From NCBI GenBank assembly GCA_963826885.1, contig CAWGYL010000009.1:172176-236175 (forward strand): a stretch of DNA of 64,000 bases, given 5' to 3'. Positions within the stretch are counted from its first letter, which is position 1; each line of letters opens with the position of its first letter. The notes beneath the pieces are model-generated. The model was not told the origin of the DNA. It did not search any database and saw only the letters and a list, made by a program, of their open reading frames with translations. Shown piece after piece: positions 31,962 to 56,425 of this stretch. The position numbers and the translations under genes are program-made. The stretch comes from Nitrospirota bacterium (GTDB taxonomy: Bacteria > Nitrospirota > UBA9217).

Positions 31962-31970
31962 AGAAGTATT

Positions 31971-35711: not shown

Positions 35712-37154
35712 TCACCGTTGCAGAAGCCTTTTCATTTCTAAATACTCTTCTTTTTTGAATATCAGGGTCATGACTAGATAACACACTATGCCGGATGATA
35801 TTAAGAGTATCAGTGAATATAATGGCGAGATGTTCAGCATTTTTTTGAATAGAAAAATGACACTTACCATTACAAAACTTGCAGAGAGTGGAAAGGAGAT
35901 CTCTGACAGATATTGTTTTATCGGTACTCCCAATACGTTTAAGTAATATGAGCAGGTAACAAGAAAAACGAGGGGATACGCAATGATCCATGCGAGACAT
36001 ATCCCCAGGATCCCATCTCTCACCCCGATCAGGAATGCTATGACCATGACTATAGTCGTTATAACGGCAATAATCAGATTAGCTTTCGCCTGACCTATGG
36101 CGATTATCGTCGAATTGAGAATGGGGCTCAGAGCTTTCAGCGGCAGCATGATACATAGTAGTTGAAACGGTAGAACGGCATTCACCCACTTGGGACCAAG
36201 AATCAACGGGATGGCTTCCGGCGCAACGGCTGCCATACCCCAAAATATGGGGAACCCGGAAAAGGCAATCACACGCGTGGTACGCAGCATGTTTCTTCTG
36301 ACGCGATCCATGTCGGCCTGAATTCTCGAGAAGGAGGTAAATGATATCTGATTAATGAGCGGCAAAACTTTATCTGCCGGTATTGATGCGAGGTTTAACG
36401 CAACGCCATAGATCCCCAAAGTAACCTGTCCCAGGAACCTGCCAACGATGATCAGGTCGGCCTGGTTATAGAGAGAGTAGAACAGCCTGCTTCCGGTAAG
36501 CGTGACGCCATATCTTATGAATTTCCCCGAGCCGGTAAAATTGAAAAGGGGCCTGAGCCGGTCGACGCGCGCCACATTAAATAAAACAGCTTTGATCAAA
36601 TTGAGGGTCAGGGTGCCGATAACAAGCGCCCAGACTCCCAGGCCCTTCAAGGCAAGGATCAAGGTCACCAGCGCCGACCCGATCTGGGCCGACACATCAA
36701 TGGCGGTCTTTGATTTGAAGTTCATTTCACGGATAAAGAGCGATTGCGGGACCAAATAAAAAGCGATCAGCATGAAGTTTACAAGCACGACCCTGAGGAT
36801 GGGTACAAGATCATGCTCCTTGTAAAACAGGGCGACAAGGGGAGCGGCCAAGTGACAGGCAAGCCAGAACACAAGGCTGCTCGCAATAGTGAAACCGTAA
36901 ATTTGACGGAGTTCCTTCTCCGTCATGCGCTCCGCCTGAACTATCGCGGAGCCGATTCCTAGCTCATTGAACGGCCCCAACAACGCGATAAAGCTGCCCG
37001 CCATGGCCATGAGACCGTAATCTTTCGGCAACAGCAGCCGGATGACAACGATCGTGGATATCCAGGATACGAGCTGGCCGGCAAACGTTCCGATACTCAA
37101 CCAGAAAAAACCCCTCAAGGCCCTTGTTTTAAACGATGCTTCTTCCGCTGCCAT
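35712..37154 (-). CDS. wzx: Wzx polysaccharide flippase (WzxC-like), copy 2
   Basis: RLLLPKDYGLMAM, DLIIVGRFLG..LGIY; multiple TM segments. Confidence 0.9.
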   Translation of the reverse strand: MAAEEASFKTRALRGFFWLSIGTFAGQLVSWISTIVVIRLLLPKDYGLMAMAGSFIALLGPFNELGIGSAIVQAERMTEKELRQIYGFTIASSLVFWLACHLAAPLVALFYKEHDLVPILRVVLVNFMLIAFYLVPQSLFIREMNFKSKTAIDVSAQIGSALVTLILALKGLGVWALVIGTLTLNLIKAVLFNVARVDRLRPLFNFTGSGKFIRYGVTLTGSRLFYSLYNQADLIIVGRFLGQVTLGIYGVALNLASIPADKVLPLINQISFTSFSRIQADMDRVRRNMLRTTRVIAFSGFPIFWGMAAVAPEAIPLILGPKWVNAVLPFQLLCIMLPLKALSPILNSTIIAIGQAKANLIIAVITTIVMVIAFLIGVRDGILGICLAWIIAYPLVFLVTCSYYLNVLGVPIKQYLSEISFPLSASFVMVSVIFLFKKMLNISPLYSLILLISSGIVCYLVMTLIFKKEEYLEMKRLLQR

Positions 37155-38357
37155 TTATGCTCTTTTCCCCTTGACCGACAGTTCGAGCAGCAGAGCATCT
37201 ATAAAGAATTTTACCGCCCAGTTTAAGATCTCGAAACGCCCATATTCGCCATGAACCGGATCTGAGCCGCTGATTCCACCATGAATGTCCGGATTATCTG
37301 TCCGGAGCAACTGAACATTCTTCAAGTATCCATTGACTCGTGCCACGCAATCCGGGTATTTCGATTCACCGGTCACCTGGTATAATCTGCTCCAGATGAT
37401 GGATATTTGCGCATCGCCCGTAAGGCAGCTCCAGGATACAGTCGGCTCCCACCTCTCGTTAAAGCGTCCCGGGAGGCTTCCGTCGCTACGCTGTTGCGCT
37501 ATCAATGCGTCAGCTGCTTTTTTGGCGCTTTGAACGTAATTTTGATTGTCCAACAGTATGCCTGATTCCAGGATACCGCGGATGCAATACGCTATGGTAT
37601 GAAGCAGAGGCTGCGACGGATCACTGAGACAGTTGGACTTGAACCATCCGTTTTTCAACTGCTGGTCAAGGCCGAACTCTATATTTCGAATTGCCGCTTC
37701 CTTGAAGCGGGCGCCGCGATCAACCGTGGACAACAAGAGCAGCGCCCAAGCTGTCCTCGTGTTATACGAATAAGAGGACATCGCGTCGCTTGTATAATCC
37801 GACAATTTTTTTCGCCATGCGCCGTCCTTGTCCTGATGATCCGCCAGAAATTTTCCGGCTTTTACAGCGCAATCCAGATACCTTGCATTGCCGGTTTCCT
37901 GGAAGGCCCTGAGCCATCCGAAGATCACCTGCCCGGTGTTAAAAACAGCCGGGGTTGGCTTTTGATCGACGGTCCCTCCCTGCACGGCCCCATCTTCCAT
38001 CTGGACGTCGCATTCCCAGTCCGCCATACGAACAGCGCGGTCGAATATGTCCTGTTTTTTCGTTAAATGGGCGTAATCAAACATCGTCGGAATGATATAG
38101 CCCGTGGTTTCAGGATAGGACGGCACCCAACCTCTACGTTTGAAATAAGGATTGTAGACCAGCGAATAACTCCGTGCCACGCCTCCGTCATTAAACGCAT
38201 CCTGCGCACGGCAAATCCATTGGACAGCCGCCTCAAGGTGGTTCATGACGTCATACGTCGCATTGTCCCGGCCCTTCATATATATCTTCGCAATATCGGA
38301 ATTTAAGAATGAAGAATAATACCTACCCGCTGTTATCAGACTCTCAAGGTTAGGCAT
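37155..38357 (-). CDS. Prenyltransferase/squalene-oxidase-repeat (alpha/alpha toroid) protein of unknown function
   Basis: QW-like repeats (WICRAQD..DGG, QMEDGAV, QDKDGAW, QRSDGSL); SYPETTGY; FNTGQV. ORF track start 38375. Confidence 0.72.
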   Translation of the reverse strand: MPNLESLITAGRYYSSFLNSDIAKIYMKGRDNATYDVMNHLEAAVQWICRAQDAFNDGGVARSYSLVYNPYFKRRGWVPSYPETTGYIIPTMFDYAHLTKKQDIFDRAVRMADWECDVQMEDGAVQGGTVDQKPTPAVFNTGQVIFGWLRAFQETGNARYLDCAVKAGKFLADHQDKDGAWRKKLSDYTSDAMSSYSYNTRTAWALLLLSTVDRGARFKEAAIRNIEFGLDQQLKNGWFKSNCLSDPSQPLLHTIAYCIRGILESGILLDNQNYVQSAKKAADALIAQQRSDGSLPGRFNERWEPTVSWSCLTGDAQISIIWSRLYQVTGESKYPDCVARVNGYLKNVQLLRTDNPDIHGGISGSDPVHGEYGRFEILNWAVKFFIDALLLELSVKGKRA

Positions 38358-38668
38358 GAACATCACCCCACTCATAAAAATGAACTTTTTCCGTCACCAA
38401 AGGAAGGGTCGCACCCTCCCGCAAAATCGAATCCTGAACTGGCCCGGAGAGCGTCTCAAATTGGATAGGCAACCTGAAGAAACCTGTGAATGTTACCACT
38501 GTGCGATCGCTCTTGAGAAGCGCTATTCTGTGCCTGATGGATTGCCAAGTATGGGTTTTAATAAAGCTTTTCGCCACCGGTATTTTTTTCGTGGCATTCA
38601 TAAGTTCTCGCATCATCGTGAAGTAAAATACCTCGCTGTCTTCATTATTCTAGCAGCGTATGCAATTG

Positions 38669-40063
38669 TCATCTTGCAAGACCGCTGATACGATCCAAAT
38701 GTTTGGCAAGGTTCTGCGTAATCCATTTTCTGTCGAACTGCTGTTGGATCGCGGAACCATTTGCCGGTTCCGTCAAGGTTCCGTCAGACATCGATCGATA
38801 AATAAACTCTTTAATCCCATCGATATCGGCAGGATAAAAAGCCGTTCCCGCGCCCGTCGATGTGATCAGGTCCCATGTTGCGCCCTTCTCAGTCAAGGCT
38901 AGGATCTTCGTTCCCAGACCCATATAATCAAAAACTTTTGCTGGTATTTGAAAAGGCTGGCCTGGCGCAAAGAGCAAGGCCACATGGCTTTGCTTTATGA
39001 TTTCAAGGGCCTTGAAATAAGGGACCGTGTCCAGCACTTCCACGGCTGAATCGAGACCATACGCATGAATTACCCGGGATATCGGCTGGCCATCGATATG
39101 CTTGCAGCTCCCCACTAATTTAACCTTGACGTCTTGAAGATTGAGTTTTCCCTCCTGCACAAGTTCGTGAATTGCCTTGAAAGTTGGTTCCGGATTTCTC
39201 CCGATATAGAGCGTGCCCGCGTAAGTCAGAGTAAAGGTATCAAACTTTCTTAGGTGTTTTAGCTGCGCGGCAATCTCCGCATCAAAACCGTTCGTGATAT
39301 GGACGAACTTTGTTTCGGGCAGGTCAGCGTATGATTTCTTAAAATTGTCGCGAAGATTCTCGGTGGTCGTGAGAACCAGATCCGCCTTTTGTATCACCTG
39401 TTTTTCGAGCCATGTTTCAATCTTGGTGGACAGGGCCGAGGTCACATACAGTCGCCTGGGGCCGGAACTGACCCAGGGGTCCCGAAAATCCGCAACCCAT
39501 CTGACGCCGGTGACTATTTTCACCAGAAGGCCGATGAGATGAACCGAGTAGGGTGGAGAAGACGTCAAAATGCATCCGATGTTCTCTCGTTTTATTTCTC
39601 GAACAGCCCTGAATGTCGCCGGCAAAACCCAGTTCCGTTCGCCATCGGGCAGAGTGAGAAAGGAAACTATAAAACGTTTGATCTTATGACTTGTCTTTTC
39701 CGGCCCGGAAGATGTGTTATGCGATTGGCTATGGGTTCTTTCCAATTCCTCCACTGTAATCCGCCTCCTCTTGAGAAGGCTGTGATACAGGCTTTTCAGC
39801 TTTAAGTAGCCCTGCATGATCGTAGGAAGCTGACCCGCCTTGTAGATTTTTTCGACGTGTATGTCGTTTAATTTTCCCATATCCAGTTTTTCGATATATT
39901 TGTCCTTGATGGTGAGGACAGAGGTTTTCCAGCCAAAAAGAGGAAGATATTTTGCAAAGTGGACGATCCTCAGACCTCCCACCGCCATACTCGGCGGGAA
40001 ATGATAGGAGATCAATAATATTTTTTTCGTATTTGATTTTGATGGAATGCCGGTAGTTTTCAT
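38669..40063 (-). CDS. Glycosyltransferase family 4 (WbuB/CapK-like)
   Basis: LISYHFPP..GGLR, TSSPPYSVH, WVADFRDPW, IPAKVFDY. Confidence 0.88.
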   Translation of the reverse strand: MKTTGIPSKSNTKKILLISYHFPPSMAVGGLRIVHFAKYLPLFGWKTSVLTIKDKYIEKLDMGKLNDIHVEKIYKAGQLPTIMQGYLKLKSLYHSLLKRRRITVEELERTHSQSHNTSSGPEKTSHKIKRFIVSFLTLPDGERNWVLPATFRAVREIKRENIGCILTSSPPYSVHLIGLLVKIVTGVRWVADFRDPWVSSGPRRLYVTSALSTKIETWLEKQVIQKADLVLTTTENLRDNFKKSYADLPETKFVHITNGFDAEIAAQLKHLRKFDTFTLTYAGTLYIGRNPEPTFKAIHELVQEGKLNLQDVKVKLVGSCKHIDGQPISRVIHAYGLDSAVEVLDTVPYFKALEIIKQSHVALLFAPGQPFQIPAKVFDYMGLGTKILALTEKGATWDLITSTGAGTAFYPADIDGIKEFIYRSMSDGTLTEPANGSAIQQQFDRKWITQNLAKHLDRISGLAR

Positions 40064-40147: not shown

Positions 40148-41005
40148 TCAGATCCTTGTGGTTTTGGATGCAAACACGAAATAGATCGTGTGTCCGTCAA
40201 CAAGTTTGGCGCCTTCCCATCTTCGGGCGACAATTTCTCCACCCGATTTTCTTACCATGGAATCGATATTGTGGATGAATGACTGATCACTTTCACGAGG
40301 TACCGAATGTTCAAGTCGGGCATTGTCGATGTCTGGATGGGCGAGACCTGAAAATCCCAACATAATATCGGTATGCCGCAGCATGATGTCGACGACACGA
40401 CTTGCCTCTTCCTCTTTCAAATACATGAGCACTCCCGTGCAGAGCATAATGTCATATCTTCTATTTTCCAGGAAACGCTCAAGCTCTTCCATATCAGCAG
40501 ACTGTAACCGGACTTTTGAACCTGCCTGCGTGAGGTATTCGGACCCGGTCCGGATTGCATGCGCATCGATATCGACGCCCTCTAACATAGAGGCTGCTGG
40601 AAAAACGTCCGTCTCCAGGTAGCGCAATTGATATCCCAACGAACAGCCGACTTCAAAAACAGATACGATGTCTTTTCGCGGGTCGAGAGACCGTCCAGTC
40701 AGGTGCTCCGTCAGGTCCGAAAAAAAGATCAAACGCGATTGTTTTATGTTCTCCCTGCCAAAGGTGGCGGCGACTTCATAAGGCGCGGCATAGGATAGAT
40801 GATGCGACCACAGGAATTTGTGATAGTCATTTATATTTTTCTCAGCCAAATCGTGGATAAGTTCCAACGACCACCAGGAACGACGGTTGCTGTCAAGCCA
40901 CTTCTGCTTATTCACCCAGAGGGAGAGGTGTTTGCGGACCGCCAGCGGAAGCAGGGAGCGAACACTCTTTTTAACCGTTGTCTTAATGGCTGCTGTCTTT
41001 GACAT
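40148..41005 (-). CDS. Class I SAM-dependent methyltransferase
   Basis: VFEVGCSLG, EGVDID, YDIMLCTGVLMYL. Confidence 0.85.
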   Translation of the reverse strand: MSKTAAIKTTVKKSVRSLLPLAVRKHLSLWVNKQKWLDSNRRSWWSLELIHDLAEKNINDYHKFLWSHHLSYAAPYEVAATFGRENIKQSRLIFFSDLTEHLTGRSLDPRKDIVSVFEVGCSLGYQLRYLETDVFPAASMLEGVDIDAHAIRTGSEYLTQAGSKVRLQSADMEELERFLENRRYDIMLCTGVLMYLKEEEASRVVDIMLRHTDIMLGFSGLAHPDIDNARLEHSVPRESDQSFIHNIDSMVRKSGGEIVARRWEGAKLVDGHTIYFVFASKTTRI

Positions 41006-42245
41006 GAGTTTTCTGCCTGTGCTTTTGACTATCGGTATTTTTATTCGCCCTGGTACGCCTCTTTCCCAACCAGACCGCTGATTTTTTCAGTAGCCGCGCA
41101 GTCATCAAGATAAACGGCATCGGGTCTTTCCAGCTGAACCATGCGCCTTCTTCCACCCCTTTGAACGACCGGAGCCAATCGCCAATCCCCAGCGAGCCTT
41201 CCTGGTAATAGTGGAGCGATGACACGATGTCGTAATTCTCGATCACCCATTTTCGCCCTTCTCGCGGGGGTCGCTTCAGTACCAGCTGGCCGGTCAAGTC
41301 TTTATATAAGGCCCTGACTACATCCATGCCGTCCTCTGCGACAAACAACCTGAACGCCTGCCCCACGCGGGGATTGATGTCGAGGACCTTATACTTCCCG
41401 TTGCGGGGGTCGAGCCGGTACCCGATGTCGAGTATACCCTTGTAGCCAACGGTCTTCATGAACGCGGTCGTAATGTCTGCCACCTCCTGGTTCCATTTAC
41501 AGATGCCGAGCGAAGCGCAACCCACATGGACGGGAAACTGGCGGATCTTGTGGCCGGTAAAGCCGGCGAGACACTCCGATTGTTCGTTAAAGTATCCGTT
41601 GAAAATGTAAATTTGATCGTCTCCCCCCGGAATATACTCCTGAATCATGAGGTTCGGCTGGTCGGGGTCCTCCAGTTCTTTATACGCCTCGACCAGCTCT
41701 TCTTTTGTATGTACGATCATCATTTTCACGCCGGTCCTGGCCTGGAGGCGGTTTCCCAAGATCCCCTTCAGCATCACAGGAAACGCCCCACCGTCGGCAT
41801 ACTCCTGCACATCCCGGAGTGTGCGGGGGAATACCGTGAATGCGGTGGGTACCCCGTGCCTGGTCGCGAGTTCGTACATGCCCTCTTTGCTCATGAGATC
41901 TTTCACGAGCCGGAGATCGTTTCGGGGAAAAAGGAAATACTCGCTCAGTTTATCGGCATATTCAGCGACAAAGACCGACAATTCGTCGGACGTCGGGATG
42001 AGGATCGCTTTTTTCTCCAGCTGTTTCCCGATGCGGATGACGAAATCCAGATATTCCTGCGGGCGTTGTTCGTCCAGTGCTTTGACGTATTTCCCCCGGC
42101 AATAACGGGAGGCGAACGCGGGTGCGTTCTTATCATCATCCACGCCGTACAGAGTCACCCCGAGACTTCCCAGGCTTCTCATGATCGCCAGAGCGCCGAT
42201 CTGGCAATTAAGGATGAGAACGGGCGTATTTTTTTCGTTGTCCAT
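40983..42245 (-). CDS. ATP-grasp carboxylate-amine ligase (D-aspartate-ligase-like)
   Basis: LIPTSD, PVMLKG, MIQEYIPG, DIGYRLDPRNGKYKVLDINPR. ATG 42245 preferred (track start 42272). Confidence 0.87.
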   Translation of the reverse strand: MDNEKNTPVLILNCQIGALAIMRSLGSLGVTLYGVDDDKNAPAFASRYCRGKYVKALDEQRPQEYLDFVIRIGKQLEKKAILIPTSDELSVFVAEYADKLSEYFLFPRNDLRLVKDLMSKEGMYELATRHGVPTAFTVFPRTLRDVQEYADGGAFPVMLKGILGNRLQARTGVKMMIVHTKEELVEAYKELEDPDQPNLMIQEYIPGGDDQIYIFNGYFNEQSECLAGFTGHKIRQFPVHVGCASLGICKWNQEVADITTAFMKTVGYKGILDIGYRLDPRNGKYKVLDINPRVGQAFRLFVAEDGMDVVRALYKDLTGQLVLKRPPREGRKWVIENYDIVSSLHYYQEGSLGIGDWLRSFKGVEEGAWFSWKDPMPFILMTARLLKKSAVWLGKRRTRANKNTDSQKHRQKTHVKDSSH

Positions 42246-42289
42246 GAAAACACCTTGATGGAAAATCGTCAAATTGATTGAATAATAAA

Positions 42290-43021
42290 TTAAACAGCAG
42301 GTTTTAAAACGGTCCCCGCCAGCCGGATCAACTCGTTGTTCACGAGGCTGGGCACAACATCAAGATCGTCAATGTGATGAAGGGTAAATTCAAGATCCTG
42401 CTCTTGTCCGGACTTCCGAAGATACGCGGCGCTCCTGCCGCCGCGGACTTCCTCGGGGCTGACACCGCGCCATCTGGCGATATATTGGTCTGTTTCGGGC
42501 GTTTCCGCTCGATATCCACAGCTCACGAGCCGTTCTGCCACCCATGCGCACCCCATCTGGTCTTCCCTCCTGAACTGCCCGCGCGTCCCCGCCCCGAGAA
42601 TCGCGACCCGGTCATGTTTTCCTGCGATATAGCCGGCGACGGCCGACAGGTTTCTTAAACACGCAATATACACGGCTGGCCCACCCGCCGCGTTCATCAA
42701 GAGCTGCGTACCCGAAGACGACACAAGAACCATGGGACGGTGGATATCCGTGCGTTGAGCGATTTGCGCAGGACTGTTTGTCACATCAAAACCATAGGGC
42801 ATGTTTCCGCCCAGTTCGCCGACAAGAAGCGGATTCTCCAGGCACGATGCACGCTCGGCGGCTTCGTCGGTTGTTCTCGCAGGAAAAATTCGTCTTCCAA
42901 GACTGACTGCCGTCGTCGCGGTCGTGGTTGCACGGATGACATCGATTACAACGATTGCATAAAACTCTTTGTAGCGTAACGCACTATCTGGAAAACAATC
43001 GATGACTACTGATCCTTTCAA
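42290..43021 (-). CDS. comB: 2-phosphosulfolactate phosphatase
   Basis: VVIDVIRATTT, GELGG, NSP, SSSGT (normally TTNGT), EDQMGCA. AAGGAGG RBS before TTG 43021. Confidence 0.9.
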   Translation of the reverse strand: MKGSVVIDCFPDSALRYKEFYAIVVIDVIRATTTATTAVSLGRRIFPARTTDEAAERASCLENPLLVGELGGNMPYGFDVTNSPAQIAQRTDIHRPMVLVSSSGTQLLMNAAGGPAVYIACLRNLSAVAGYIAGKHDRVAILGAGTRGQFRREDQMGCAWVAERLVSCGYRAETPETDQYIARWRGVSPEEVRGGRSAAYLRKSGQEQDLEFTLHHIDDLDVVPSLVNNELIRLAGTVLKPAV

Positions 43022-43103
43022 AATGACCACCTCCTTGAAGCGTACTGCCTGGAGACCCACGGTGACATGATCGTCGCGCGCCAGAGACGTTTCATTCCTC
43101 TCC

Positions 43104-44234
43104 TCACGACATACCCCGGTCCAGCAGATATGCAAGAACGGTCACCGCCGGCTGTATATCATCCGTACGATTATACGCATTATGGCTGCTCGATATGTAA
43201 TGGTGATGCATTCCCGGATTGCTGTTGATCTCATTGATGACTCCGCCGCTCTGCTCAAGCGGTACGGTGGGATCGAGCGTTATGACATCAACACCCGTAA
43301 ATTTTGAATGCAGAAGACAGGCCGCACGTTCCGCCTGCTGCCGAAGCTCCTTGCAGATAAGGTGCGTCACGACTTCGTTATAGATCGTCCGCACCTCAAC
43401 ATGTTTCTCGCCAGGACGTTCATGGCTCTGAACTAGTACCTCCTGCCCGCCTGGCAGCACGGATTGAAAGGTAAGTCCTTGCCGGGACAGCGTAGCAGAC
43501 ATATCTCGGTTCCAGGTGATCGGTCCGAAGGCATTCGCTGGCTTTTTTCCGCGCCCCCGTTCGTTCTCTCTCTTAACAAGCTCCGCAATGGTCGATCGCT
43601 CGTCCCCCCGCACGCGCACACCCCTACGTCGGACAGCATGAATCATCCTCCCATTCAAAACAAGAAGACGGTAGCATTCACCGGGCACGAGGTCCTCAAG
43701 AATGATCGTGCTGCTGTAAAGAGAGGCAAGAGCTATCGCGTTCCTGCATTCCCGCTTTGTCCGGACATGCGTAGTGACACCCATTCCGGCACTCGTCTCC
43801 AGGGCTGGTTTAACGACAAAATAACTTTTTCTCCCGTTTAAAAACTGCCACGCCCGGTCCAGCTCGTCTGGCCGAAAGATCACGTGGTCCGGCACTGGAA
43901 TCTTCTCACGCCTTAGGATGTCATAGCAAAATGGTTTATTTCCCGCGAGATTGTCGATAACTGCATCATCCAGCTGGATCCTATGGATGTTAATATATGT
44001 TTTTGATTCGCCGCGACGAACCTCCCAGATGCCTTCAGCGAGCTCTGAGAACTGCGCTGAGAGCCTGGCTGCCGCAGCTTCCCATAACTGTCGGTAAAAC
44101 GGGATGCGGTCCCACACATACACTGTCTGTGTCCGACCCCAAAGCCGCGACGCCATGATGCCGAGACGCTTTTTCATGCGTAATGTGGAGAAAGCTAATT
44201 TTTCTCTATGAGAGGGAGAGCATGTTGTCATCAA
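43104..44234 (-). CDS. Stand-alone cyanophycin-synthetase-like ATP-grasp ligase
   Basis: VVKP..TSAGMGVT, EDLVPGECYRLLV, VRGDERSTIAEL, GVDVIT, GGVINEINSNPG; no Mur-ligase half. Start may be 44177. Confidence 0.85.
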   Translation of the reverse strand: MMTTCSPSHREKLAFSTLRMKKRLGIMASRLWGRTQTVYVWDRIPFYRQLWEAAAARLSAQFSELAEGIWEVRRGESKTYINIHRIQLDDAVIDNLAGNKPFCYDILRREKIPVPDHVIFRPDELDRAWQFLNGRKSYFVVKPALETSAGMGVTTHVRTKRECRNAIALASLYSSTIILEDLVPGECYRLLVLNGRMIHAVRRRGVRVRGDERSTIAELVKRENERGRGKKPANAFGPITWNRDMSATLSRQGLTFQSVLPGGQEVLVQSHERPGEKHVEVRTIYNEVVTHLICKELRQQAERAACLLHSKFTGVDVITLDPTVPLEQSGGVINEINSNPGMHHHYISSSHNAYNRTDDIQPAVTVLAYLLDRGMS

Positions 44235-44424
44235 AAAAATGTGGTACAGAAAATTCTATTCACTGTTCCTGTATTTGGTGATTGGACCTCATGCGAAGCA
44301 CGCTTGTACTACATTGAAAATGCAGTCCGGTCCATGCAGCTATTCCCACTTTTCCGTAAACGGCTGTATCAAGGTAATGTTTATGCCTGCCGGCCATGAT
44401 CATGTATTCACTTGTAGTGCAGGA

Positions 44425-45228
44425 TCACTGTGGGCCCTTCGGCCTTAAATTGTCATGCTGAAAGGCATCCGAATGGAGTCCCCGACGATAAATTTCCACC
44501 CGGAGAAGCTCCTCGATTCGCACATTGCTCAGATGAACTTCCGGGCCGAAGTGGTTCAGGAGCGCAAACTGGCTCGGTTTGTTCGGTGCTTCAAAGATTG
44601 CAACATCAAGGCCGAAGGCGTGGGCAAACCGGTCCGCTGAATTCGGATCGAATTCTCCCTTGGTGCCGAAAACACCGATGTCCTGTGCGTTTTCCCTGGC
44701 TTCCACGACGATTTGCTTCGCCCCGACATCGAGCCACTTTTTCCCCTGGTCGATCAATTCGCCGACGACATCTGCGGTGAAGGTGCCGTCATGTTTTTTG
44801 CCTACTTCAAATTGCACTTCCAGTCCACGCTCATCGGCCATCTTTATGACCTCTTCGGGTCTATAGCGCAAATCCGTAAAACCTTCGCCAGCCTCGATCC
44901 GGTTCATCCCGATGTCTGCGCACAAGTCCAGATATTCGGCAAGCTTTCCGAACGTGGCTGCGACTTCAAAGGGACCGCCGCCGGTGCATACACAAACACC
45001 CATACGGCGCGCCGCATCAACTTTGCGTCGAGTAGATTTCTCATTGGCGATTTGCCAGCAGGCCATGGAAATCTTGAGCGTATCTATCAGGTGCGCGCTC
45101 TGTTCGAGGTGGCTCTCCAGTGTCAGAGGGTCATATCCGGGATCAAAGGGAGACGTGCGCGGCGTCATGTCGGGGACCCCGATATGGTGCAAATAATCCT
45201 GCGTGCTAAGGGCTTTTTTTCTTATCAT
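44425..45228 (-). CDS. comA: Phosphosulfolactate synthase
   Basis: IDTLKI, TGGGPFE, FEVGKK, IVVEARE, IFEAPNK, FGPEVHLSNV, RRGLHSD; full ComA TIM-barrel motif order. Confidence 0.92.
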   Translation of the reverse strand: MIRKKALSTQDYLHHIGVPDMTPRTSPFDPGYDPLTLESHLEQSAHLIDTLKISMACWQIANEKSTRRKVDAARRMGVCVCTGGGPFEVAATFGKLAEYLDLCADIGMNRIEAGEGFTDLRYRPEEVIKMADERGLEVQFEVGKKHDGTFTADVVGELIDQGKKWLDVGAKQIVVEARENAQDIGVFGTKGEFDPNSADRFAHAFGLDVAIFEAPNKPSQFALLNHFGPEVHLSNVRIEELLRVEIYRRGLHSDAFQHDNLRPKGPQ

Positions 45229-45288: not shown

Positions 45289-46443
45289 TCACCTTTTGGC
45301 CGGCGACCAAGTGGTATACGTTCTTCCTCTCGCAAATTGCACCCAACCACTTAGGATGGCTGCATTCATTGCTACGAAGGTATAGCAGATCGAGTTCAGT
45401 GTAGAAAAAACCGTGGAGCGCTTCCGGGAGTGACCCACCCAGGCGGAGATATAGCAGGTCAATTGCGCCAGGAGCAGTACGTTATATACCGTTCCGCTGT
45501 TCATGAGGGCCACATTGCAACATGCAAGAGACAGGAGAAAAAAGGGCGTTAGGAATTTGGCTATCTTATGGGAAAATAGTTCAAAAGAAAAAAATCCGTA
45601 TTGCAGGGGGTTCAGCAGTGCTGCATTGTTGTAAATTGCCCGGAGCGCACGATTGGTGATCCTGACCTGCCTTCCGAACTCGCCTTTTTGACTCCCCGCA
45701 GTTTTCTCCACGCAGAAGGCGTTTTCTTCCAAAACCCCCCGAAATCCCTGTTCGATGATCTTCAGGGGGATGACCAGATCGTTGATATCCGTATTACGCA
45801 AGGGTTTATACAGATGTCTTCGAATGGCGAAAATCGCTCCGTCCGCACCCACGCAGGAGCCGATTCTGCTTTCCGATTTTTTCGTCATCTTCTCGATTTT
45901 TGCATAGATTCCGACAGATGCCGCGACCTCGTCCACTCCCTGTTCGGCATATTTTGTATACCCGGACGCGAATCCGATCCGTTCATCGGCAAAGTTTGCC
46001 ACCAGATTTTTTATGGCGTCCCTGTCATAGAATGAATTTGCATCTGAAAAAACGATGATATCACCGCAGGCGGAGGCAACGGCATGATTCAGGCATGCAG
46101 TTTTCCCGATTCTTCCTTCATGATAGTTCAGCACTGCACCCTGCTTTTCATATGACTTCACGATGTCGTTGGTCCTGTCATCGGAGCCGTCGGATACGAC
46201 CATGATTTCCAGTAAATCTTTCGGATACTGTATTGAAAACGAATTGATCAGCTTGTCTTCTATGACGGCTTCTTCATTGTATGCCGAGATGAGGAGCGAT
46301 ACTTTCGGTAAGGAAGGCTTCTCACCTTCCCGGCGTCTGGCCGGGAACAGGGATGCGATCAACCAGATGAAGACCGGATACCCCGCATAGGCATACACTA
46401 CGAAGCCTGCAGAAAGCCAAAAAAGTGTTTTTATTGCGTCCAT
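45289..46443 (-). CDS. Glycosyltransferase family 2
   Basis: ISAYNEE, VSDGSDD, IGKTACLN, FSDANS, GADGAIFAIR, INDL. Confidence 0.92.
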   Translation of the reverse strand: MDAIKTLFWLSAGFVVYAYAGYPVFIWLIASLFPARRREGEKPSLPKVSLLISAYNEEAVIEDKLINSFSIQYPKDLLEIMVVSDGSDDRTNDIVKSYEKQGAVLNYHEGRIGKTACLNHAVASACGDIIVFSDANSFYDRDAIKNLVANFADERIGFASGYTKYAEQGVDEVAASVGIYAKIEKMTKKSESRIGSCVGADGAIFAIRRHLYKPLRNTDINDLVIPLKIIEQGFRGVLEENAFCVEKTAGSQKGEFGRQVRITNRALRAIYNNAALLNPLQYGFFSFELFSHKIAKFLTPFFLLSLACCNVALMNSGTVYNVLLLAQLTCYISAWVGHSRKRSTVFSTLNSICYTFVAMNAAILSGWVQFARGRTYTTWSPAKR

Positions 46444-46490: not shown

Positions 46491-48389
46491 TCACGACATG
46501 TAAAGGTCGTGCCACGTCTGAAACATTACGAGTGACCAGATCAGCGTATCATTGATTTCCCGTCCGCTGTAATGATCCGTCAGGATATTTTCTACCGTGT
46601 TTTCATTGAATAAACCGTGTTTTCCTAAATTCTTTTTTGACAATGTACTCAGTGTCAATTCCTTCAAATGCGTTTGAAGCCACCGTGTCATGGGACCGAC
46701 GAAACCCTGCTTCCGATGATTGAGAATGGCTTTCGGCAATAATCCGGCGACGCCCTTTTTGAGAAGATATTTTTTCCGATGCCATTTTATCTTCAGCTCG
46801 GGTGGAATCGTCGCGCAATATTCGACCAGTTTGTAATCGAGGAAAGGAACCCTTACCTCCAGGGAATGATGCATGCTCAACCGGTCGGTGCACGCCAGGA
46901 TATCTTCTGGAAGATAGGTTTTGATATCGCAGTAAAACACCTTGTTGAGGGGATCGTCCGCCCGCGCGGAATCGAACAGTTCGGTATACTTTTTTTCTAC
47001 GGTCTCCAGCGCCCCTGCATATTGTTTGCCCTGCGTGGAAAAAAACGCGTCCTTATATCGCTTGTTCAGTTTGGATATGAAGCCGAAATATCTCTCTGCA
47101 TGGTTCGAGGATGAGGACCTGACGAAGCGTTTCATATGGTTCACGGTGTAATTCCCGGAAGACGATTCCGGCATCCATTCGATTAACCTTCTCACTATAT
47201 TTTCTCTTACTAATCCGGGAATTTTATTGTATACCTGGCTCATCTGAAAACCAAGATAGCGCTCATACCCGCAAAACATTTCGTCCCCGCCCAGCCCGGA
47301 CAGAGCAACGGTCACATTCTTTCGCGCCATTTGAGACACGAAATATGAGGGAATGACGGAATCATCCGCAAAAGGCTCATCAAAGGACCGGACAATCCGT
47401 TCCAGCAATCCTTCCACCTCTGGCTGGACCTCATGCTCCCGGTGTCTAGTGTTATATCTCTCGGCAACAAGCCTGGCATACTTGCGTTCGTCATCGAACC
47501 CGCCGATATTCCCCCCGAACCCGATGGTAAAGGTGTTTACCGGTCCATTATTTGCGCGGCTCATGAGTGCTACAACCGCGCTTGAATCAATCCCACCGCT
47601 CAAAAAAGCCCCGAGCGGCACATCGCTCATGAGCTGCATCTTGACCGATTCATCCAGCAATTCCATGCATTCGTGGATAAAATCATCTTCGCTTTTATGT
47701 CGGTTCGGTTCGAAGGACAGGTCCCAGTACTGTTGTATACGCACACGCCCTTGGGCGTATACCAGCACGTGCCCCGGCGACAGTCGTTTTATGTTCTTAT
47801 AGATGGTTAGAGGTGCGGGAATATACGAGAATGTAAAATACGAGCTGAGTGCCTCTTCATCGATTGCGCGGACGAATCGCGGATCGGCAAGAATCGATTT
47901 CATTTCCGACGAAAAGACGAAGGTGCCGTTATACTGCGCGAAAAACAGGGGCTTTTCTCCCAACCTATCCCGAGCAAGGAGCATTTTCTGCGCCCGCGAG
48001 TCCCATATGCAGAAGGCGAACATGCCTCGCAACTTTTCCACACATTTTTCACCCCACTCTTCATAGGCATGGACGATGGTTTCCGTATCGCTCGAGGATG
48101 AAAAGAGGTGGCCTTTTTGTACGAGATCTGCTTTGATTTCCTGATAATTGTAAATTTCTCCGTTGAAGACGATGCAGATACTTTTATCCTCATTAAAGAT
48201 CGGTTGTTGACCGGTTTTTAAGTCTATAATGCTCAACCGTCTGTGGCCAAGGGCAATATTGTTGCCGACATAATACCCCCGGTCATCCGGCCCCCGGTGT
48301 TTTAGACACGTGGCCATCGTCGTGATGAATTGAGACAACTCATCATGCGGCTTTCCCCGTTCGCTGTATAATCCGACAATCCCGCACAT
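46491..48389 (-). CDS. asnB: Asparagine synthase (glutamine-hydrolysing)-type amidotransferase
   Basis: N-terminal MCGIVG, HRGPD, LGHRRLSIID, FNGEIYN, LSGGIDSS, LSGLGGDE, EVRVPFLD. Confidence 0.95.
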   Translation of the reverse strand: MCGIVGLYSERGKPHDELSQFITTMATCLKHRGPDDRGYYVGNNIALGHRRLSIIDLKTGQQPIFNEDKSICIVFNGEIYNYQEIKADLVQKGHLFSSSSDTETIVHAYEEWGEKCVEKLRGMFAFCIWDSRAQKMLLARDRLGEKPLFFAQYNGTFVFSSEMKSILADPRFVRAIDEEALSSYFTFSYIPAPLTIYKNIKRLSPGHVLVYAQGRVRIQQYWDLSFEPNRHKSEDDFIHECMELLDESVKMQLMSDVPLGAFLSGGIDSSAVVALMSRANNGPVNTFTIGFGGNIGGFDDERKYARLVAERYNTRHREHEVQPEVEGLLERIVRSFDEPFADDSVIPSYFVSQMARKNVTVALSGLGGDEMFCGYERYLGFQMSQVYNKIPGLVRENIVRRLIEWMPESSSGNYTVNHMKRFVRSSSSNHAERYFGFISKLNKRYKDAFFSTQGKQYAGALETVEKKYTELFDSARADDPLNKVFYCDIKTYLPEDILACTDRLSMHHSLEVRVPFLDYKLVEYCATIPPELKIKWHRKKYLLKKGVAGLLPKAILNHRKQGFVGPMTRWLQTHLKELTLSTLSKKNLGKHGLFNENTVENILTDHYSGREINDTLIWSLVMFQTWHDLYMS

Positions 48390-51235: not shown

Positions 51236-51547
51236 GGCAGATTTCTCACGACTGAAGTCCAATCGACTGCGTCAGGCTTAGCGGGGGCCCATCGACATAC
51301 TGCTCCCAAGCACCTCTATACAATTCCATAAACAAGCGTATAGTCATGAGGTCCCGATATGATCGGTCAATCCGTGTTCGGTGGAGTATCTCTCTTGGCA
51401 AGTTAGTTGAGGACCCCTTCGTTCCCCGCGGGGGTAGCGCGCAATGAGGGTCCTTCTTCAACGTGTTAGACATGCATTTCTTCATGACGCTTTTTGGGCA
51501 CTATAAGCCAATGACTTGCAAGATAAAACACTCGGCCTTTTTGTATT

Positions 51548-52657: not shown

Positions 52658-52716
52658 TTGTCCAGATTTTGGTTAATAAGGTTGATGTATATACTTCTAC
52701 ATCGCTGATGGCAGAA

Positions 52717-56397: not shown

Positions 56398-56425
56398 TTT
56401 TGTAGAGTTCTCCTGGCTTGGAGGA

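What the first reader, a model, noticed from the sequence alone, without database searches (positions are those of the whole stretch)
40148..45228. Sulfolactate-synthesis cassette (comA/comB) embedded in an exopolysaccharide operon: candidate sulfonated-glycan pathway
Seen: co-oriented and tightly packed comA - ATP-grasp - comB - ATP-grasp - SAM methyltransferase, flanked by a GT2 upstream and a GT4 downstream, with no comC/comDE in the window. Established: ComA condenses PEP and sulfite to phosphosulfolactate and ComB dephosphorylates it to (R)-sulfolactate (coenzyme M pathway; also Bacillus spore sulfolactate); ATP-grasp enzymes activate carboxylates and ligate them to amines. Inference: sulfolactate, or a derivative such as cysteate via a dehydrogenase and aminotransferase, is attached to amino sugars or uronates of the EPS. 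This would give a C-sulfonated polyanionic matrix without PAPS or sulfotransferases. I know of no described sulfolactyl modification of a bacterial polysaccharide.
Basis: partly seen in the sequence, partly recalled or inferred. Interest (0 to 1): 0.9.

Follow-up and report, generated by a model that had tools for sequence, protein, structure and literature searches.

The report
Sulfolactate-ligating cassette in exopolysaccharide locus
A five-gene block that makes the sulfonic acid sulfolactate and carries two ATP-dependent ligases sits inside a slime-polysaccharide gene cluster; its three-gene core recurs in hundreds of uncultured soil, peat and sediment microbes, mostly in such clusters, pointing to an undescribed sulfonated sugar polymer.

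Summary
On the minus strand, 40148-45228 encodes ComA, a cyanophycin-synthetase-like ATP-grasp (AG1), ComB, a second ATP-grasp (AG2) and a SAM methyltransferase. GT2 lies upstream and a GT4-like gene downstream. There is no comC or comDE in the window. The surroundings are a bona fide XrtA/PEP-CTERM exopolysaccharide locus.

Comparative genomics changes the picture. The conserved unit is ComA-ComB-AG2.
- Of 131 non-redundant AG2-family loci (all MAGs, more than 10 phyla, including Bathyarchaeia), 107 carry ComA.
- 18 others carry an alternative 2-hydroxy-acid supply pair (RraA-like aldolase plus a ComC-family Ldh_2).
- AG1, the GT4-like gene and the window-type methyltransferase form an accessory set found in about a third of loci.
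- About 80% of ComA/ComB loci contain glycan-assembly genes, in at least 8 different architectures. About 15-20% do not.
- De-N-acetylases often adjoin AG2. PIG-L lies directly after it in Bathyarchaeia.

Best reading (confidence about 0.55): AG2 ligates sulfolactate, probably as an amide onto a sugar amine of the polysaccharide repeat unit, and AG1, the methyltransferase and the GT4-like gene elaborate it. No chemistry was shown. I found no literature describing this. Novelty: a new variant of glycan-decoration cassettes.

The parts
44425..45228 (-). ComA, (2R)-phospho-3-sulfolactate synthase family (267 aa, = P0001)
   Evidence: PF02679 E 5.7e-47 over the full length. PDB 1QWG/24FO E about 2e-30. 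Homologues of 57-89% identity in 27 species.
43104..44156 (-). AG1: ATP-grasp ligase like the cyanophycin-synthetase G domain and RimK (350 aa; alternative TTG start at 44234). Accessory member of the cassette.
   Evidence: NF010623 E 4e-40 and TIGR03103 E 9e-24. PDB cyanophycin synthase E 5e-22. Invariant K116 and E309-x-N311. Present in 24/72 triad loci.
42290..43135 (-). ComB, 2-phosphosulfolactate phosphatase family (281 aa)
   Evidence: PF04029 E 2.4e-37. PDB 2YYV E 1.4e-21. Next to ComA in 105/131 AG2 loci.
40983..42245 (-). AG2: three-domain ATP-grasp carboxylate ligase (420 aa, = P0121). Obligate partner of ComA/ComB and candidate sulfolactate ligase.
   Evidence: PRK12767-like E 1.5e-16. 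AF2 pLDDT 84.7, and Foldseek matches PurK, biotin carboxylase and L-amino-acid ligases at TM about 0.6. Invariant K160, Q202 and D289-x-N291-x-R293. 66/66 loci of at least 12 kb carry ComA/ComB.
40148..41005 (-). Class I SAM-dependent methyltransferase (285 aa)
   Evidence: Methyltransf_25 E 3.6e-10. Homologues in 10/24 AG1+ loci against 5/48 AG1- loci.
38669..40063 (-). GT4-like (GT-B) glycosyltransferase tied to the AG1-type cassette
   Evidence: Glyco_transf_4 E 3.9e-9. Homologues (33-52% identity) found only in AG1+ loci, 12/24 against 0/48.
45289..46443 (-). GT2 glycosyltransferase directly upstream of ComA
   Evidence: PF00535 E 4.3e-18. Same position in L015, L016 and L017.
38350..38616 (-). 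88-aa ORF, probably a remnant of a CheR-type methyltransferase that is intact next to AG2 in related loci
   Evidence: tblastn with the L013 CheR-type MT: 57 aa, 37% identity, E 2e-5. No Pfam hit.
37155..38357 (-). alpha/alpha-toroid protein (squalene-cyclase / C5-epimerase / lyase-like repeats)
   Evidence: SQHop_cyclase_C E 1.1e-9, C5-epim_C E 2.9e-6. Homologues in 3/24 AG1+ loci.
35712..37154 (-). Wzx-type flippase (first of two adjacent copies)
   Evidence: Polysacc_synt_3 E 2.4e-69.
46491..48389 (-). AsnB-type glutamine amidotransferase, closest to the XrtA/PEP-CTERM type
   Evidence: TIGR03108 659.7 bits, below its cut-off of 816.9. TIGR01536 514.8 bits, above its cut-off.
48471..49676 (-). 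UDP-GlcNAc 2-epimerase (WecB)
   Evidence: TIGR00236 300 bits, above cut-off.
50024..51262 (-). DegT-family sugar aminotransferase (possible source of a sugar amine)
   Evidence: PF01041 E 1.1e-49.
51548..53544 (-). XrtA-system FemAB-family protein (51548-52657) and XrtA-system polysaccharide deacetylase (52717-53544)
   Evidence: TIGR03019 378 bits and TIGR03006 383 bits, both above cut-off.
54866..62861 (-). Core XrtA/PEP-CTERM EPS machinery: priming transferase, outer-membrane protein, tyrosine kinase, chain-length determinant, Wza, NusG-like protein and ATPase
   Evidence: TIGR03013, TIGR03016, TIGR03018, TIGR03007 and TIGR03015, all above cut-off. Poly_export and NusG domains.

Best explanation
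The cassette is a non-carbohydrate decoration module of an XrtA/PEP-CTERM exopolysaccharide.

1. ComA adds sulfite to PEP, giving phosphosulfolactate, and ComB removes the phosphate, giving (R)-3-sulfolactate. This follows from established family functions.
2. AG2 is an ATP-grasp ligase found almost only beside a 2-hydroxy-acid supply pair. It activates the sulfolactate carboxylate as an acyl phosphate and joins it to a nucleophile. The most likely nucleophile is a free amine on a sugar of the nucleotide- or lipid-linked repeat unit. That amine would be produced by a de-N-acetylase or a DegT aminotransferase encoded in the same locus. The product would be an N-sulfolactyl sugar. This step is inferred.
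3. This window carries the extended variant. AG1 (like the cyanophycin-synthetase G domain) makes a second amide bond, for example inserting or extending an amino-acid spacer. The methyltransferase caps the product, for example on the 2-hydroxyl. The co-inherited GT4-like enzyme installs or uses the sugar concerned. All of this is inferred.
4. The finished unit is flipped, polymerised and exported by the Wzx, Wzy and Wza machinery of the locus.

The result would be a polysaccharide carrying a permanently charged, sulfatase-resistant C-sulfonate.
For: AG2 is tied to a 2-hydroxy-acid source:
- 66/66 AG2 loci of at least 12 kb carry ComA/ComB.
- In the non-redundant set of 131 loci, 107 have ComA and 106 ComB. 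Another 18 have RraA-like aldolase plus Ldh_2 (the ComC family) instead, with only 1 locus having both kinds. Six have neither.
- A LarA-like 2-hydroxy-acid racemase lies beside the triad in 14/72 loci.
- The ATP-grasp catalytic motifs are invariant in AG2 and in AG1.

Link to glycans:
- The window locus is an XrtA EPS system by seven NCBIfam models above their cut-offs.
- 86/108 ComA/ComB loci have at least one glycan-assembly marker, 52 at least two and 39 at least three. This is a lower bound, because it rests on homology to a small query panel.
- The architectures differ between phyla. In Terriglobia the order is Wza-Wzz-ATPase-kinase-UGDH-priming transferase-MT-ComA-ComB-AG2-Wzx-like-kinase-GT-Wzy. 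Bathyarchaeia have ComA-ComB-AG2-PIG-L-GT. Zixibacteria, Acidiferrobacteraceae, Gemmatimonadota and Ignavibacteria have further layouts.

Amine acceptor:
- 42/108 loci encode a deacetylase or a DegT aminotransferase within 10 kb.
- PIG-L lies directly after AG2 in 7 Bathyarchaeia loci.
- Distant AG2 homologues in cultured Priestia and Cytobacillus sit in PIG-L-GT4-ATP-grasp-kinase operons.
- AG2 paralogues without ComA still lie in EPS loci (L144, L182).
- The window has a WbpA/B/E/D/I-like gene set that could supply a 3-amino uronic acid.

Expression: peat metatranscriptome contigs at 99% identity or more cover ComA, AG1, ComB, AG2, the GT4-like gene and flanking EPS genes.

Precedents: the ATP-grasp domain Cj1438C forms an amide on a capsular sugar (PMC11800379). 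A ComA homologue supplies a sulfonated acyl group in misaugamycin (PMC9136965).
Against: - No product was observed. Every step after ComB is inferred from gene context.
- About 15-20% of triad loci have non-glycan flanks. L006 is flanked by methylmalonyl-CoA mutase, a response regulator, Sbt and MetK. In 17 marker-less loci, 135 flanking proteins fall into 144 Pfam families, with only a few glycan genes among them.
- Only 39% of loci show an amine-generating enzyme within 10 kb.
- AG2 has no close characterised relative. Its Foldseek matches are generic ATP-grasp enzymes. The JGI label 'D-aspartate ligase' is untested.
- An ester bond, or ligation to an amino acid first, cannot be excluded.
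- The ComA substrate (sulfite) is assumed from the family. The active-site residues were not checked.
- The RNA evidence is low-depth contigs, which can include DNA.
Confidence: 0.55

Rival explanations
1. The cassette makes a soluble small molecule, with no covalent link to the polysaccharide. Candidates are an N-sulfolactyl amino acid or pseudo-dipeptide that is then methylated, serving as an osmolyte, metal ligand, signal or cofactor-like compound. It lies in EPS loci only through co-regulation or horizontal hitch-hiking.
For: - The full five-gene block occurs in a non-glycan context on a 9.3-Mb contig (L006).
- 17 loci have heterogeneous flanks.
- The related unit RraA-AG1-AG2-Ldh_2 lies among housekeeping genes, with its own Wzx/MOP-type transporter, in Gammaproteobacteria.
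- AG1 resembles ligases that join amino acids: cyanophycin synthetase, NAGGN synthetase and GshAB.
- B. subtilis spores accumulate free sulfolactate (own knowledge).
Against: - 80% of loci are embedded in glycan clusters of many different architectures. The triad is often placed between the priming transferase and the flippase.
- A GT4-like gene is co-inherited strictly with AG1.
- PIG-L deacetylase lies directly after AG2 in Bathyarchaeia.
Confidence: 0.2
2. Sulfolactate is only an intermediate. It is oxidised to sulfopyruvate and transaminated to cysteate. The ATP-grasp enzymes then join cysteate, as an amino acid, to uronic-acid carboxylates of the EPS.
For: - Ktedonobacteraceae loci combine the triad with an FMN-dependent 2-hydroxy-acid oxidase, a D-2-hydroxy-acid dehydrogenase and a DegT-type aminotransferase.
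- UDP-glucose dehydrogenases are common in the loci.
- Cj1438C provides a precedent for amidation of a uronate.
Against: - The window and most loci lack any 2-hydroxy-acid dehydrogenase next to the triad.
- LarA-like 2-hydroxy-acid racemases and the alternative Ldh_2 supply module point to a hydroxy acid as the ligated species.
- DegT enzymes normally act on keto-sugars.
Confidence: 0.08
3. The ligases modify a peptide or protein rather than a sugar, for example a peptidoglycan stem peptide, an aminoacyl side branch installed by the FemAB-like enzymes, or PEP-CTERM proteins. They would cap an amine with sulfolactate.
For: - JGI labels AG2 homologues 'D-aspartate ligase'. The characterised enzyme of that name adds D-Asp to a peptidoglycan precursor (reference cited in PMC4155827).
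- FemAB-family genes lie in the window and in several related loci.
- CapA (PGA_cap) lies next to AG1 in 7/24 loci.
Against: - The D-aspartate ligase relationship was not tested here.
- FemAB and CapA are absent from most triad loci.
- No precursor-peptide gene was seen.
- This reading overlaps the best explanation if the aminoacyl branch sits on the glycan.
Confidence: 0.1
4. The genes are the start of coenzyme M biosynthesis, by the archaeal ComABCDE route or the bacterial Xcb route.
For: ComA and ComB are the first two enzymes of the archaeal pathway. XcbB1 of Xanthobacter is a ComA homologue (PMC9457059 is listed; a Xanthobacter plasmid hit appears).
Against: - The window has no ComC or ComDE and no Xcb-type partner.
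- The carriers are Nitrospirota, Acidobacteriota, Desulfobacterota and similar groups, not methanogens or alkene oxidisers.
- The invariant partner is an ATP-grasp ligase, which the CoM pathways do not use.
Confidence: 0.02

Closest known systems
Archaeal coenzyme M pathway steps ComA/ComB, and B. subtilis YitD/YitC (spore sulfolactate)
   Same: It uses the same two enzyme families and presumably the same chemistry: PEP plus sulfite gives phosphosulfolactate, which gives sulfolactate.
   Different: No ComC or ComDE follows. The invariant next gene is an ATP-grasp ligase. The context is polysaccharide assembly, in non-methanogens.
Campylobacter jejuni capsule amidoligase Cj1438C (TupA-like ATP-grasp; PMC11800379)
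   Same: An ATP-grasp enzyme encoded in a surface-polysaccharide locus forms an amide bond on a sugar as a non-carbohydrate decoration.
   Different: In Cj1438C the sugar carboxylate is activated and a small amine is added. Here the small acid (sulfolactate) is presumably activated. AG2 is a PurK/biotin-carboxylase-like three-domain ATP-grasp, not TupA-like. AG1 hits the sugar-transfer-associated ATP-grasp family PF14397 only weakly, below its cut-off.
Bacillithiol/mycothiol logic: GT4 (BshA/MshA), then PIG-L-family deacetylase (BshB/MshB), then a ligase on the freed amine (own knowledge)
   Same: A GT4, a de-N-acetylase and a carboxylate-amine ligase are encoded together. Sulfolactate is the sulfonate analogue of the malate in bacillithiol. 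PIG-L-GT4-AG2-like operons exist in Priestia, and ComA-ComB-AG2-PIG-L in Bathyarchaeia.
   Different: No cysteine ligase and no thiol chemistry is indicated. Most loci are full EPS clusters with a priming transferase, flippase, polymerase and exporter. The ligase family differs.
Phosphonate (2-aminoethylphosphonate) decoration cassettes built around PEP mutase in glycan loci (own knowledge)
   Same: A short cassette, embedded in polysaccharide loci, converts PEP into a C-heteroatom acid for use as a glycan decoration.
   Different: It forms a C-S rather than a C-P bond. Activation is by an ATP-grasp acyl phosphate rather than by cytidylylation and phosphotransfer.
Misaugamycin misNOPQ cassette (ComA homologue supplying a 2-sulfoacetyl acyl group; PMC9136965)
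   Same: A ComA homologue is recruited outside CoM biosynthesis to supply a sulfonated acyl substituent.
   Different: That case is secondary metabolism in Streptomyces, using an ACP and an acyl-CoA ligase, with no ComB, no ATP-grasp and no glycan context.
Cyanophycin synthetase CphA1 (for AG1) and D-aspartate ligase Aslfm (for AG2)
   Same: AG1 aligns with the CphA1 G domain (E 5e-22). JGI names AG2 homologues D-aspartate ligase, an ATP-grasp enzyme that adds a small acidic residue to an amine of a nucleotide-linked envelope precursor.
   Different: AG1 lacks the N and Mur-ligase-like M domains of CphA1 (350 aa against about 880 aa). The AG2 relationship to Aslfm was not tested, and its structural matches are generic.

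Membership tests
Archaeal coenzyme M biosynthesis (ComA-ComB-ComC-ComDE) | Phosphosulfolactate synthase ComA present | tested here: met
   PF02679 E 5.7e-47. TIGR03849 scores 158.8 bits, below its equivalog cut-off of 280. 1QWG E 2.5e-30.
Archaeal coenzyme M biosynthesis (ComA-ComB-ComC-ComDE) | Phosphosulfolactate phosphatase ComB present | tested here: met
   PF04029 E 2.4e-37. All NCBIfam equivalogs score below their cut-offs.
Archaeal coenzyme M biosynthesis (ComA-ComB-ComC-ComDE) | Sulfolactate dehydrogenase ComC (Ldh_2) and sulfopyruvate decarboxylase ComDE (TPP enzyme) present | tested here: not met
   Neither family appears in any ORF of at least 150 aa in the 64-kb window. The rest of the genome is not available.
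Bacterial coenzyme M pathway (XcbB1-C1-D1-E1) | ComA homologue followed by aspartase/fumarase-type, PLP-dependent and further Xcb enzymes | tested here: not met
   Only the ComA homologue is present. No lyase_1 or PLP enzyme lies next to it.
ATP-grasp superfamily (AG2) | Three-domain ATP-grasp fold with Lys, hinge Gln/Glu and Asp/Glu-x-Asn-x-Arg Mg/phosphate motifs | tested here: met
   AF2 pLDDT 84.7. Foldseek E 1e-14 to 1e-16 against PurK, biotin carboxylase and L-amino-acid ligases, TM about 0.6. Invariant K160, Q202, D289, N291 and R293 in 35 homologues.
ATP-grasp superfamily (AG1) | ATP-grasp sequence profile with conserved Lys and Glu-x-Asn | tested here: met
   NF010623 E 4e-40 and PDB 7LG5 E 5e-22. 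Invariant K116, E309 and N311 in 22 homologues. The fold was not modelled.
Cyanophycin synthetase CphA1 | N domain, G (ATP-grasp) domain and M (Mur-ligase-like) domain in one polypeptide of about 880 aa | tested here: not met
   AG1 is 350-376 aa and matches only profile positions about 199-453 of 871.
D-aspartate ligase (Aslfm-type, COG3919) | Specific sequence relationship to characterised Aslfm; D-Asp and UDP-MurNAc-pentapeptide as substrates | not tested
   Only the JGI product name on homologues. No Aslfm sequence or model was available to compare.
XrtA/PEP-CTERM exopolysaccharide locus | Signature accessory genes: deacetylase TIGR03006, FemAB TIGR03019, OMP TIGR03016, kinase TIGR03018, chain-length determinant TIGR03007, ATPase TIGR03015, priming transferase TIGR03013 | tested here: met
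   All seven score above their curated cut-offs.
XrtA/PEP-CTERM exopolysaccharide locus | Exosortase XrtA gene and PEP-CTERM substrate proteins | tested here: not met
   No homologue of the exosortase seen in L015-L017 occurs in the window (tblastn). PEP-CTERM proteins were not searched. The genes may lie elsewhere in the genome.
Glycan-decoration ATP-grasp amidoligases (Cj1438C / TupA-like; PF14397 sugar-transfer-associated ATP-grasp) | Membership of the TupA-like/ATPgrasp_ST sequence family | tested here: inconclusive
   AG1 hits PF14397 at E 0.0033, 17.1 bits, below the cut-off of 31.4. AG2 has no hit.
Proposed new module: ComA-ComB-AG2 'sulfolactate ligation' triad | The three genes adjacent and co-oriented, with AG2 of the same orthologous family | tested here: met
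   The window has all three. 105/131 non-redundant AG2 loci have both ComA and ComB.
Proposed new module: ComA-ComB-AG2 'sulfolactate ligation' triad | Sulfolactate-dependent ATP-grasp ligation and a sulfolactyl product | not testable with these tools
   This needs enzymology and analytical chemistry.

The most novel reading that the evidence does not exclude
Uncultured soil, peat, groundwater and sediment bacteria (Acidobacteriota, Nitrospirota, Desulfobacterota, Zixibacteria, Gammaproteobacteria and others), together with Bathyarchaeia, make a previously unknown class of C-sulfonated surface polysaccharide. Sulfolactate, built from PEP and sulfite, is ligated to the polymer by a dedicated ATP-grasp enzyme. 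Such polymers would stay anionic at peat pH and resist sulfatases. They could be a significant biological source of the carbon-bonded (sulfonate) sulfur that dominates soil organic sulfur.
Probability: 0.45. Interest if true: 0.9.

Novelty: new variant of a known kind. Interest (0 to 1): 0.8.

Why it matters
If the reading is right, four things follow.

1. It adds a new non-carbohydrate substituent, N- or O-sulfolactyl, to polysaccharide chemistry. It also adds a sulfotransferase-independent route to strongly acidic glycans.
2. It gives ComA and ComB a third and apparently their most widespread role. The known roles are coenzyme M biosynthesis and spore sulfolactate. At least 456 species-level genomes carry AG2 relatives.
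3. It defines the function of a large orphan ATP-grasp family. That family always sits beside a 2-hydroxy-acid supply module.
4. It offers a testable biological origin for sulfonate sulfur in soils and peat. Sulfonate is a major but poorly explained pool of organic sulfur (own knowledge). The window's sequence is found in peat and soil metagenomes and metatranscriptomes.

All carriers found are MAGs, which would explain why the chemistry has not been seen.

Tried and rejected
- **Rfam:** a scan of the whole window found nothing at gathering thresholds.
- **Promoters and terminators:** the scan of 36.5-50.5 kb gave counts no different from shuffled sequence.
- **ComA-AG1 gap:** the 268-nt spacer has no unusual RNA structure (z = -1.1).
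- **Close structural relative of AG2:** the PDB sequence search gave only marginal hits. Foldseek gave generic ATP-grasp enzymes. Substrate could not be inferred from structure.
- **Exact-sequence look-up of the long ORF form of ComA:** this failed because the real start is the ATG at 45228.
- **Literature:** I searched 'sulfolactyl', sulfolactate with ATP-grasp, sulfolactate with exopolysaccharide, phosphosulfolactate with glycosyltransferase, and taurine-amidated polysaccharides. None described the module.
- **Cultured carrier:**
  - All loci returned by four GTDB scans are MAGs.
  - Plasmid searches found only distant AG2 homologues (30% identity or less) in Priestia, Cytobacillus and others.
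  - They also found ComA homologues in Streptomyces NRPS/PKS clusters and in known CoM plasmids. None of these has the triad.
- **Organism name:** cluster look-up returned none.
- **Coenzyme M reading:** rejected, because the partner genes are absent and the hosts are wrong.
- **Cyanophycin synthetase reading of AG1:** rejected on domain architecture.
- **Bacillithiol-like thiol:** considered but not adopted, because the GT4-like gene is accessory and most loci are complete EPS clusters.

Full report
**Observation.** The stretch 40148-45228 carries five co-oriented minus-strand genes.
- ComA, 44425-45228: PF02679, E 5.7e-47. It matches the M. jannaschii ComA structure 1QWG at E 2.5e-30.
- AG1, 43104-44156: an ATP-grasp that matches the G domain of cyanophycin synthetase (NF010623 E 4e-40; PDB 7LG5 E 5e-22). 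It matches N-acetylglutaminylglutamine synthetase and GshAB more weakly.
- ComB, 42290-43135: PF04029, E 2.4e-37.
- AG2, 40983-42245: a second ATP-grasp with only weak profile hits (PRK12767-like).
- A class I SAM methyltransferase, 40148-41005.

Two pairs overlap (AG1/ComB by 32 nt, AG2/MT by 23 nt). The other gaps are 44-84 nt, apart from 190-268 nt between ComA and AG1. That gap shows no Rfam match and no unusual fold. GT2 lies upstream and a GT4-like gene downstream. No ComC (Ldh_2) or ComDE (TPP enzyme) occurs in any larger ORF of the window.

**Surroundings.** From about 22 kb to 63 kb, the minus strand is one polysaccharide locus. Seven signature proteins of the XrtA/PEP-CTERM exopolysaccharide system score above their curated NCBIfam cut-offs. 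They are:
- the deacetylase TIGR03006;
- the FemAB-family protein TIGR03019;
- the outer-membrane protein TIGR03016;
- the tyrosine kinase TIGR03018;
- the chain-length determinant TIGR03007;
- the ATPase TIGR03015;
- the priming transferase TIGR03013.

The locus also holds Wza, a NusG-like protein, an AsnB-type amidotransferase, WecB, two DegT aminotransferases, two Wzx, a Wzy and several glycosyltransferases and acyltransferases. An exosortase gene was not found in the window. The closest relative among species representatives is a Nitrospirota MAG (ComA 89% identical). The sequence occurs in peat and soil metagenomes.

**The conserved unit.**
- A ComA-based scan of one genome per species returned 27 loci from Nitrospirota, Desulfobacterota, Zixibacteria, Gammaproteobacteria, Chloroflexota, Acidobacteriota, Bathyarchaeota and others.
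- tblastn and ORF clustering showed that ComA, ComB and AG2 travel together in nearly all of them. AG1 is present in 11.
- Two AG2-profile scans found at least 254 and at least 456 relatives. An AG1-profile scan found 114.
- Every locus returned is a MAG.
- Of the 80 best AG2 loci, 76 contain ComA and/or ComB, including all 66 loci of at least 12 kb.

**Counts in the non-redundant set.** There are 131 non-redundant loci of at least 12 kb with an AG2-family gene.
- 107 have ComA, 106 have ComB and 105 have both.
- 18 have neither. Instead they have an RraA-like aldolase and an Ldh_2-family dehydrogenase flanking an AG1-AG2 pair (Pfam). Ldh_2 is the family of ComC.
- Only one locus mixes the two kinds of supply module. 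Six have neither.

AG2 is therefore almost always encoded beside a module that supplies a small 2-hydroxy acid with a second anionic group. LarA-type 2-hydroxy-acid racemase homologues lie beside the triad in 14 of 72 loci. This is the main evidence that AG2 acts on sulfolactate itself.

**Catalytic competence.** AG2 keeps the ATP-grasp catalytic residues (invariant K160, Q202, D289-x-N291-x-R293). Its AlphaFold model (pLDDT 84.7) matches PurK, biotin carboxylase and L-amino-acid ligases. AG1 keeps K116 and E309-x-N311.

**Accessory genes.** In the 72-locus set:
- AG1 occurs in 24.
- The GT4-like gene of the window occurs only with AG1 (12/24 against 0/48).
- CapA/PGA_cap occurs only with AG1 (7/24 against 0/48).
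- The window-type methyltransferase occurs mostly with AG1 (10/24 against 5/48).
- AG1-less loci usually carry a different methyltransferase directly upstream of ComA (26/48).

The window therefore carries the extended variant. The same order, GT2-ComA-AG1-ComB-AG2-MT-GT4-Wzx, occurs in a Deltaproteobacteria MAG (L016). That suggests transfer of the whole block. The closest Nitrospirota relative (L008) instead has ComA-ComB-AG2 followed by a CheR-type methyltransferase. An 88-aa ORF at 38350-38616 in the window looks like a remnant of that gene.

**Link to glycans.** Of 108 ComA/ComB loci, 86 have at least one, 52 at least two and 39 at least three glycan-assembly markers within 10 kb. The markers counted are exporter, chain-length determinant, kinase, priming transferase, glycosyltransferases, flippase, polymerase, exosortase and the XrtA-type ATPase. 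They were detected only by homology to a small query panel, so these numbers are lower bounds. The architectures differ by lineage:
- Terriglobia place MT-ComA-ComB-AG2 between the priming transferase and a Wzx-like protein. Around them lie Wza, Wzz, the ATPase, the kinase, UDP-glucose dehydrogenase, an APH-like kinase, an FkbM methyltransferase, a GT, Wzy and a beta-helix protein.
- Bathyarchaeia have ComA-ComB-AG2 followed by a PIG-L deacetylase and glycosyltransferases.
- Zixibacteria, Acidiferrobacteraceae, Gemmatimonadota, Ignavibacteria/Bacteroidota, Polyangiaceae and Hyphomicrobiaceae have further layouts.

The link is not universal. The five-gene block on a 9.3-Mb contig lies between methylmalonyl-CoA mutase, a response regulator, a bicarbonate transporter and MetK. 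In 17 loci without markers, 135 flanking proteins fall into 144 Pfam families with only a handful of glycan genes. I could not compute a genome-wide background rate.

**Likely acceptor.** This part is inference.
- 42 of 108 loci encode a polysaccharide or PIG-L deacetylase, or a DegT aminotransferase, within 10 kb. In seven Bathyarchaeia loci the PIG-L gene starts about 200-370 nt after AG2.
- Distant AG2 homologues (about 29-30% identity) in cultured Priestia megaterium (plasmid pBM600) and Cytobacillus spongiae lie in a PIG-L deacetylase-GT4-ATP-grasp-kinase operon. This is the bacillithiol/mycothiol order of reactions: glycosylate, de-N-acetylate, acylate the freed amine (own knowledge).
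- AG2 paralogues without ComA still sit in EPS loci (L144, L182).
- The window encodes the XrtA deacetylase, DegT, WecB, a UDP-sugar dehydrogenase, a GFO/IDH/MocA oxidoreductase and a hexapeptide acyltransferase. This set resembles the WbpA/B/E/D/I route to 3-amino uronic acids (the comparison is from own knowledge).

An amide to a sugar amine is therefore the most economical reading. An ester, or prior ligation to an amino acid, is not excluded.

**Expression.** Contigs from three peat metatranscriptomes, at 99% identity or more, cover ComA, AG1, ComB, AG2, the GT4-like gene, the toroid protein, WecB and DegT. Depth is low and contigs prove presence only.

**Comparison with known systems.**
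- ComA and ComB are shared with archaeal coenzyme M synthesis, but the pathway's later genes are missing and the hosts are wrong.
- AG1 is not a cyanophycin synthetase, because it has a single domain.
- The nearest functional analogues are:
  - the ATP-grasp amidoligase domain Cj1438C, which forms an amide on the capsular glucuronate of C. jejuni (PMC11800379);
  - PEP-mutase phosphonate cassettes in glycan loci (own knowledge);
  - the misaugamycin cassette, in which a ComA homologue supplies a 2-sulfoacetyl group (PMC9136965).
- No paper in the library mentions a sulfolactyl group or links ComA to polysaccharide synthesis.

**Verdict.**
Recurrent glycan linkage is real, but the core is ComA-ComB-AG2, a minority of cassettes is unlinked to glycan genes, the cysteate option is unsupported here, and the product is unproven.
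- My estimates: about 0.85 that the cassette makes sulfolactate, about 0.8 that AG2 uses it, and about 0.55-0.6 that the product ends up on the polysaccharide.
- Novelty: a new variant of a known kind (a glycan-decoration cassette) using an unprecedented donor.
- Interest: 0.8.

Noticed in passing
L221, L227, L238, L241, L243, L244, L247, L248, L250 (AG1 at about 10001-11000 in each): ComA-less relatives of the ligase pair form a conserved unit: RraA-like aldolase, AG1, AG2, Ldh_2 (the ComC family). A TauD-like dioxygenase and a Wzx/MOP-type transporter often accompany it. It occurs in Gamma- and Alphaproteobacteria MAGs, sometimes among housekeeping genes (rne, rluC, plsX, fabH). It looks like the same ligation chemistry with a different 2-hydroxy acid.
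   Followed up: partly
L263 7025-11219 (Priestia megaterium QM B1551 pBM600); L262 7008-12540 (Cytobacillus spongiae): A PIG-L deacetylase-GT4-ATP-grasp (AG2-like, about 29-30% identity)-phosphotransferase operon. AG2-like hits occur on 36 Priestia plasmid records. On pBM600 it lies near spore-coat genes. It is a cultured, tractable relative of the AG2 family, and its function is apparently undescribed.
   Followed up: partly
window 22000-36000 versus 36000-62000: GC content drops from about 0.50 to about 0.40 at about 36 kb, exactly between two adjacent Wzx genes (35712-37154 and 33923-35377). The low-GC half repeats functions of the other half: FemAB, DegT, a deacetylase, a methyltransferase and glycosyltransferases. 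The locus looks like a mosaic of two glycan gene sets. RNA contigs did not cover 33.6-36.2 kb.
   Followed up: partly
window 38350-38616 (-): An 88-aa ORF between the GT4-like gene and the toroid protein is weakly similar (57 aa, 37% identity) to the CheR-type methyltransferase that follows AG2 in L008 and L013. It is probably a gene remnant.
   Followed up: partly
L005, L009, L012, L018, L023, L033, L038, L048, L051, L054 and others: LarA-like (Lar_N) proteins of 440-500 aa lie directly beside ComA/ComB/AG2 in 14 of 72 loci. They are candidate sulfolactate racemases or epimerases. None is present in the window.
   Followed up: partly
L013 13172-14551, L017 10798-12183, L231: A B12-binding radical SAM enzyme is inserted between ComA and ComB, or just after AG2, in some Desulfobacterota loci. 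It may C-methylate or otherwise tailor the sulfonate unit.
   Followed up: no
L024-L027, L029 (Ktedonobacteraceae): A variant with an FMN-dependent 2-hydroxy-acid oxidase, a D-2-hydroxy-acid dehydrogenase, a methyltransferase, ComA, ComB, AG2, DegT and a GFO/IDH/MocA oxidoreductase. This is the one context where conversion of sulfolactate to sulfopyruvate or cysteate is plausible.
   Followed up: partly
L017 15436-17388; L021 14176-15309; L031 10189-11280: A PGA_cap (CapA-like) protein sits next to AG1 in 7/24 AG1+ loci. In L017 it is fused to a methyltransferase that tblastn shows to be about 38% identical to the window's. This hints that AG1 builds or anchors an amino-acid-containing appendage.
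   Followed up: no
window 61298-61993 (-): A NusG-family paralogue lies directly upstream of Wza at the head of the EPS operon. It may be an operon-specific antiterminator of the RfaH/LoaP kind.
   Followed up: no
L264 (Streptomyces sp. NBC_00211 plasmid) 8962-9759: A ComA homologue (52% identical) lies in an NRPS/PKS-type cluster with SbnB, an ACP, ketosynthases, MbtH, a methyltransferase and a separate ATP-grasp. Nearly identical hits occur on six Streptomyces plasmid records. It is probably a sulfonated natural product unrelated to the EPS module.
   Followed up: no
all loci L008-L261: Every one of the roughly 250 loci returned from one-genome-per-species scans is a metagenome-assembled genome. 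No isolate was found with the ComA-ComB-AG2 triad.
   Followed up: yes
L002 3272-4323 and 112-937: In one ENA contig of the same organism, AG1 and the AsnB gene are split into fragments. These are most likely assembly frameshifts rather than real pseudogenes, because three other assemblies have them intact.
   Followed up: partly
window 40983-41100 (C-terminus of AG2, residues about 376-420): AG2 ends in a long basic helix with conserved Trp and Lys positions, modelled at low confidence towards the end. It could be a membrane-surface anchor, which would fit action on lipid-linked intermediates. This is speculative.
   Followed up: no
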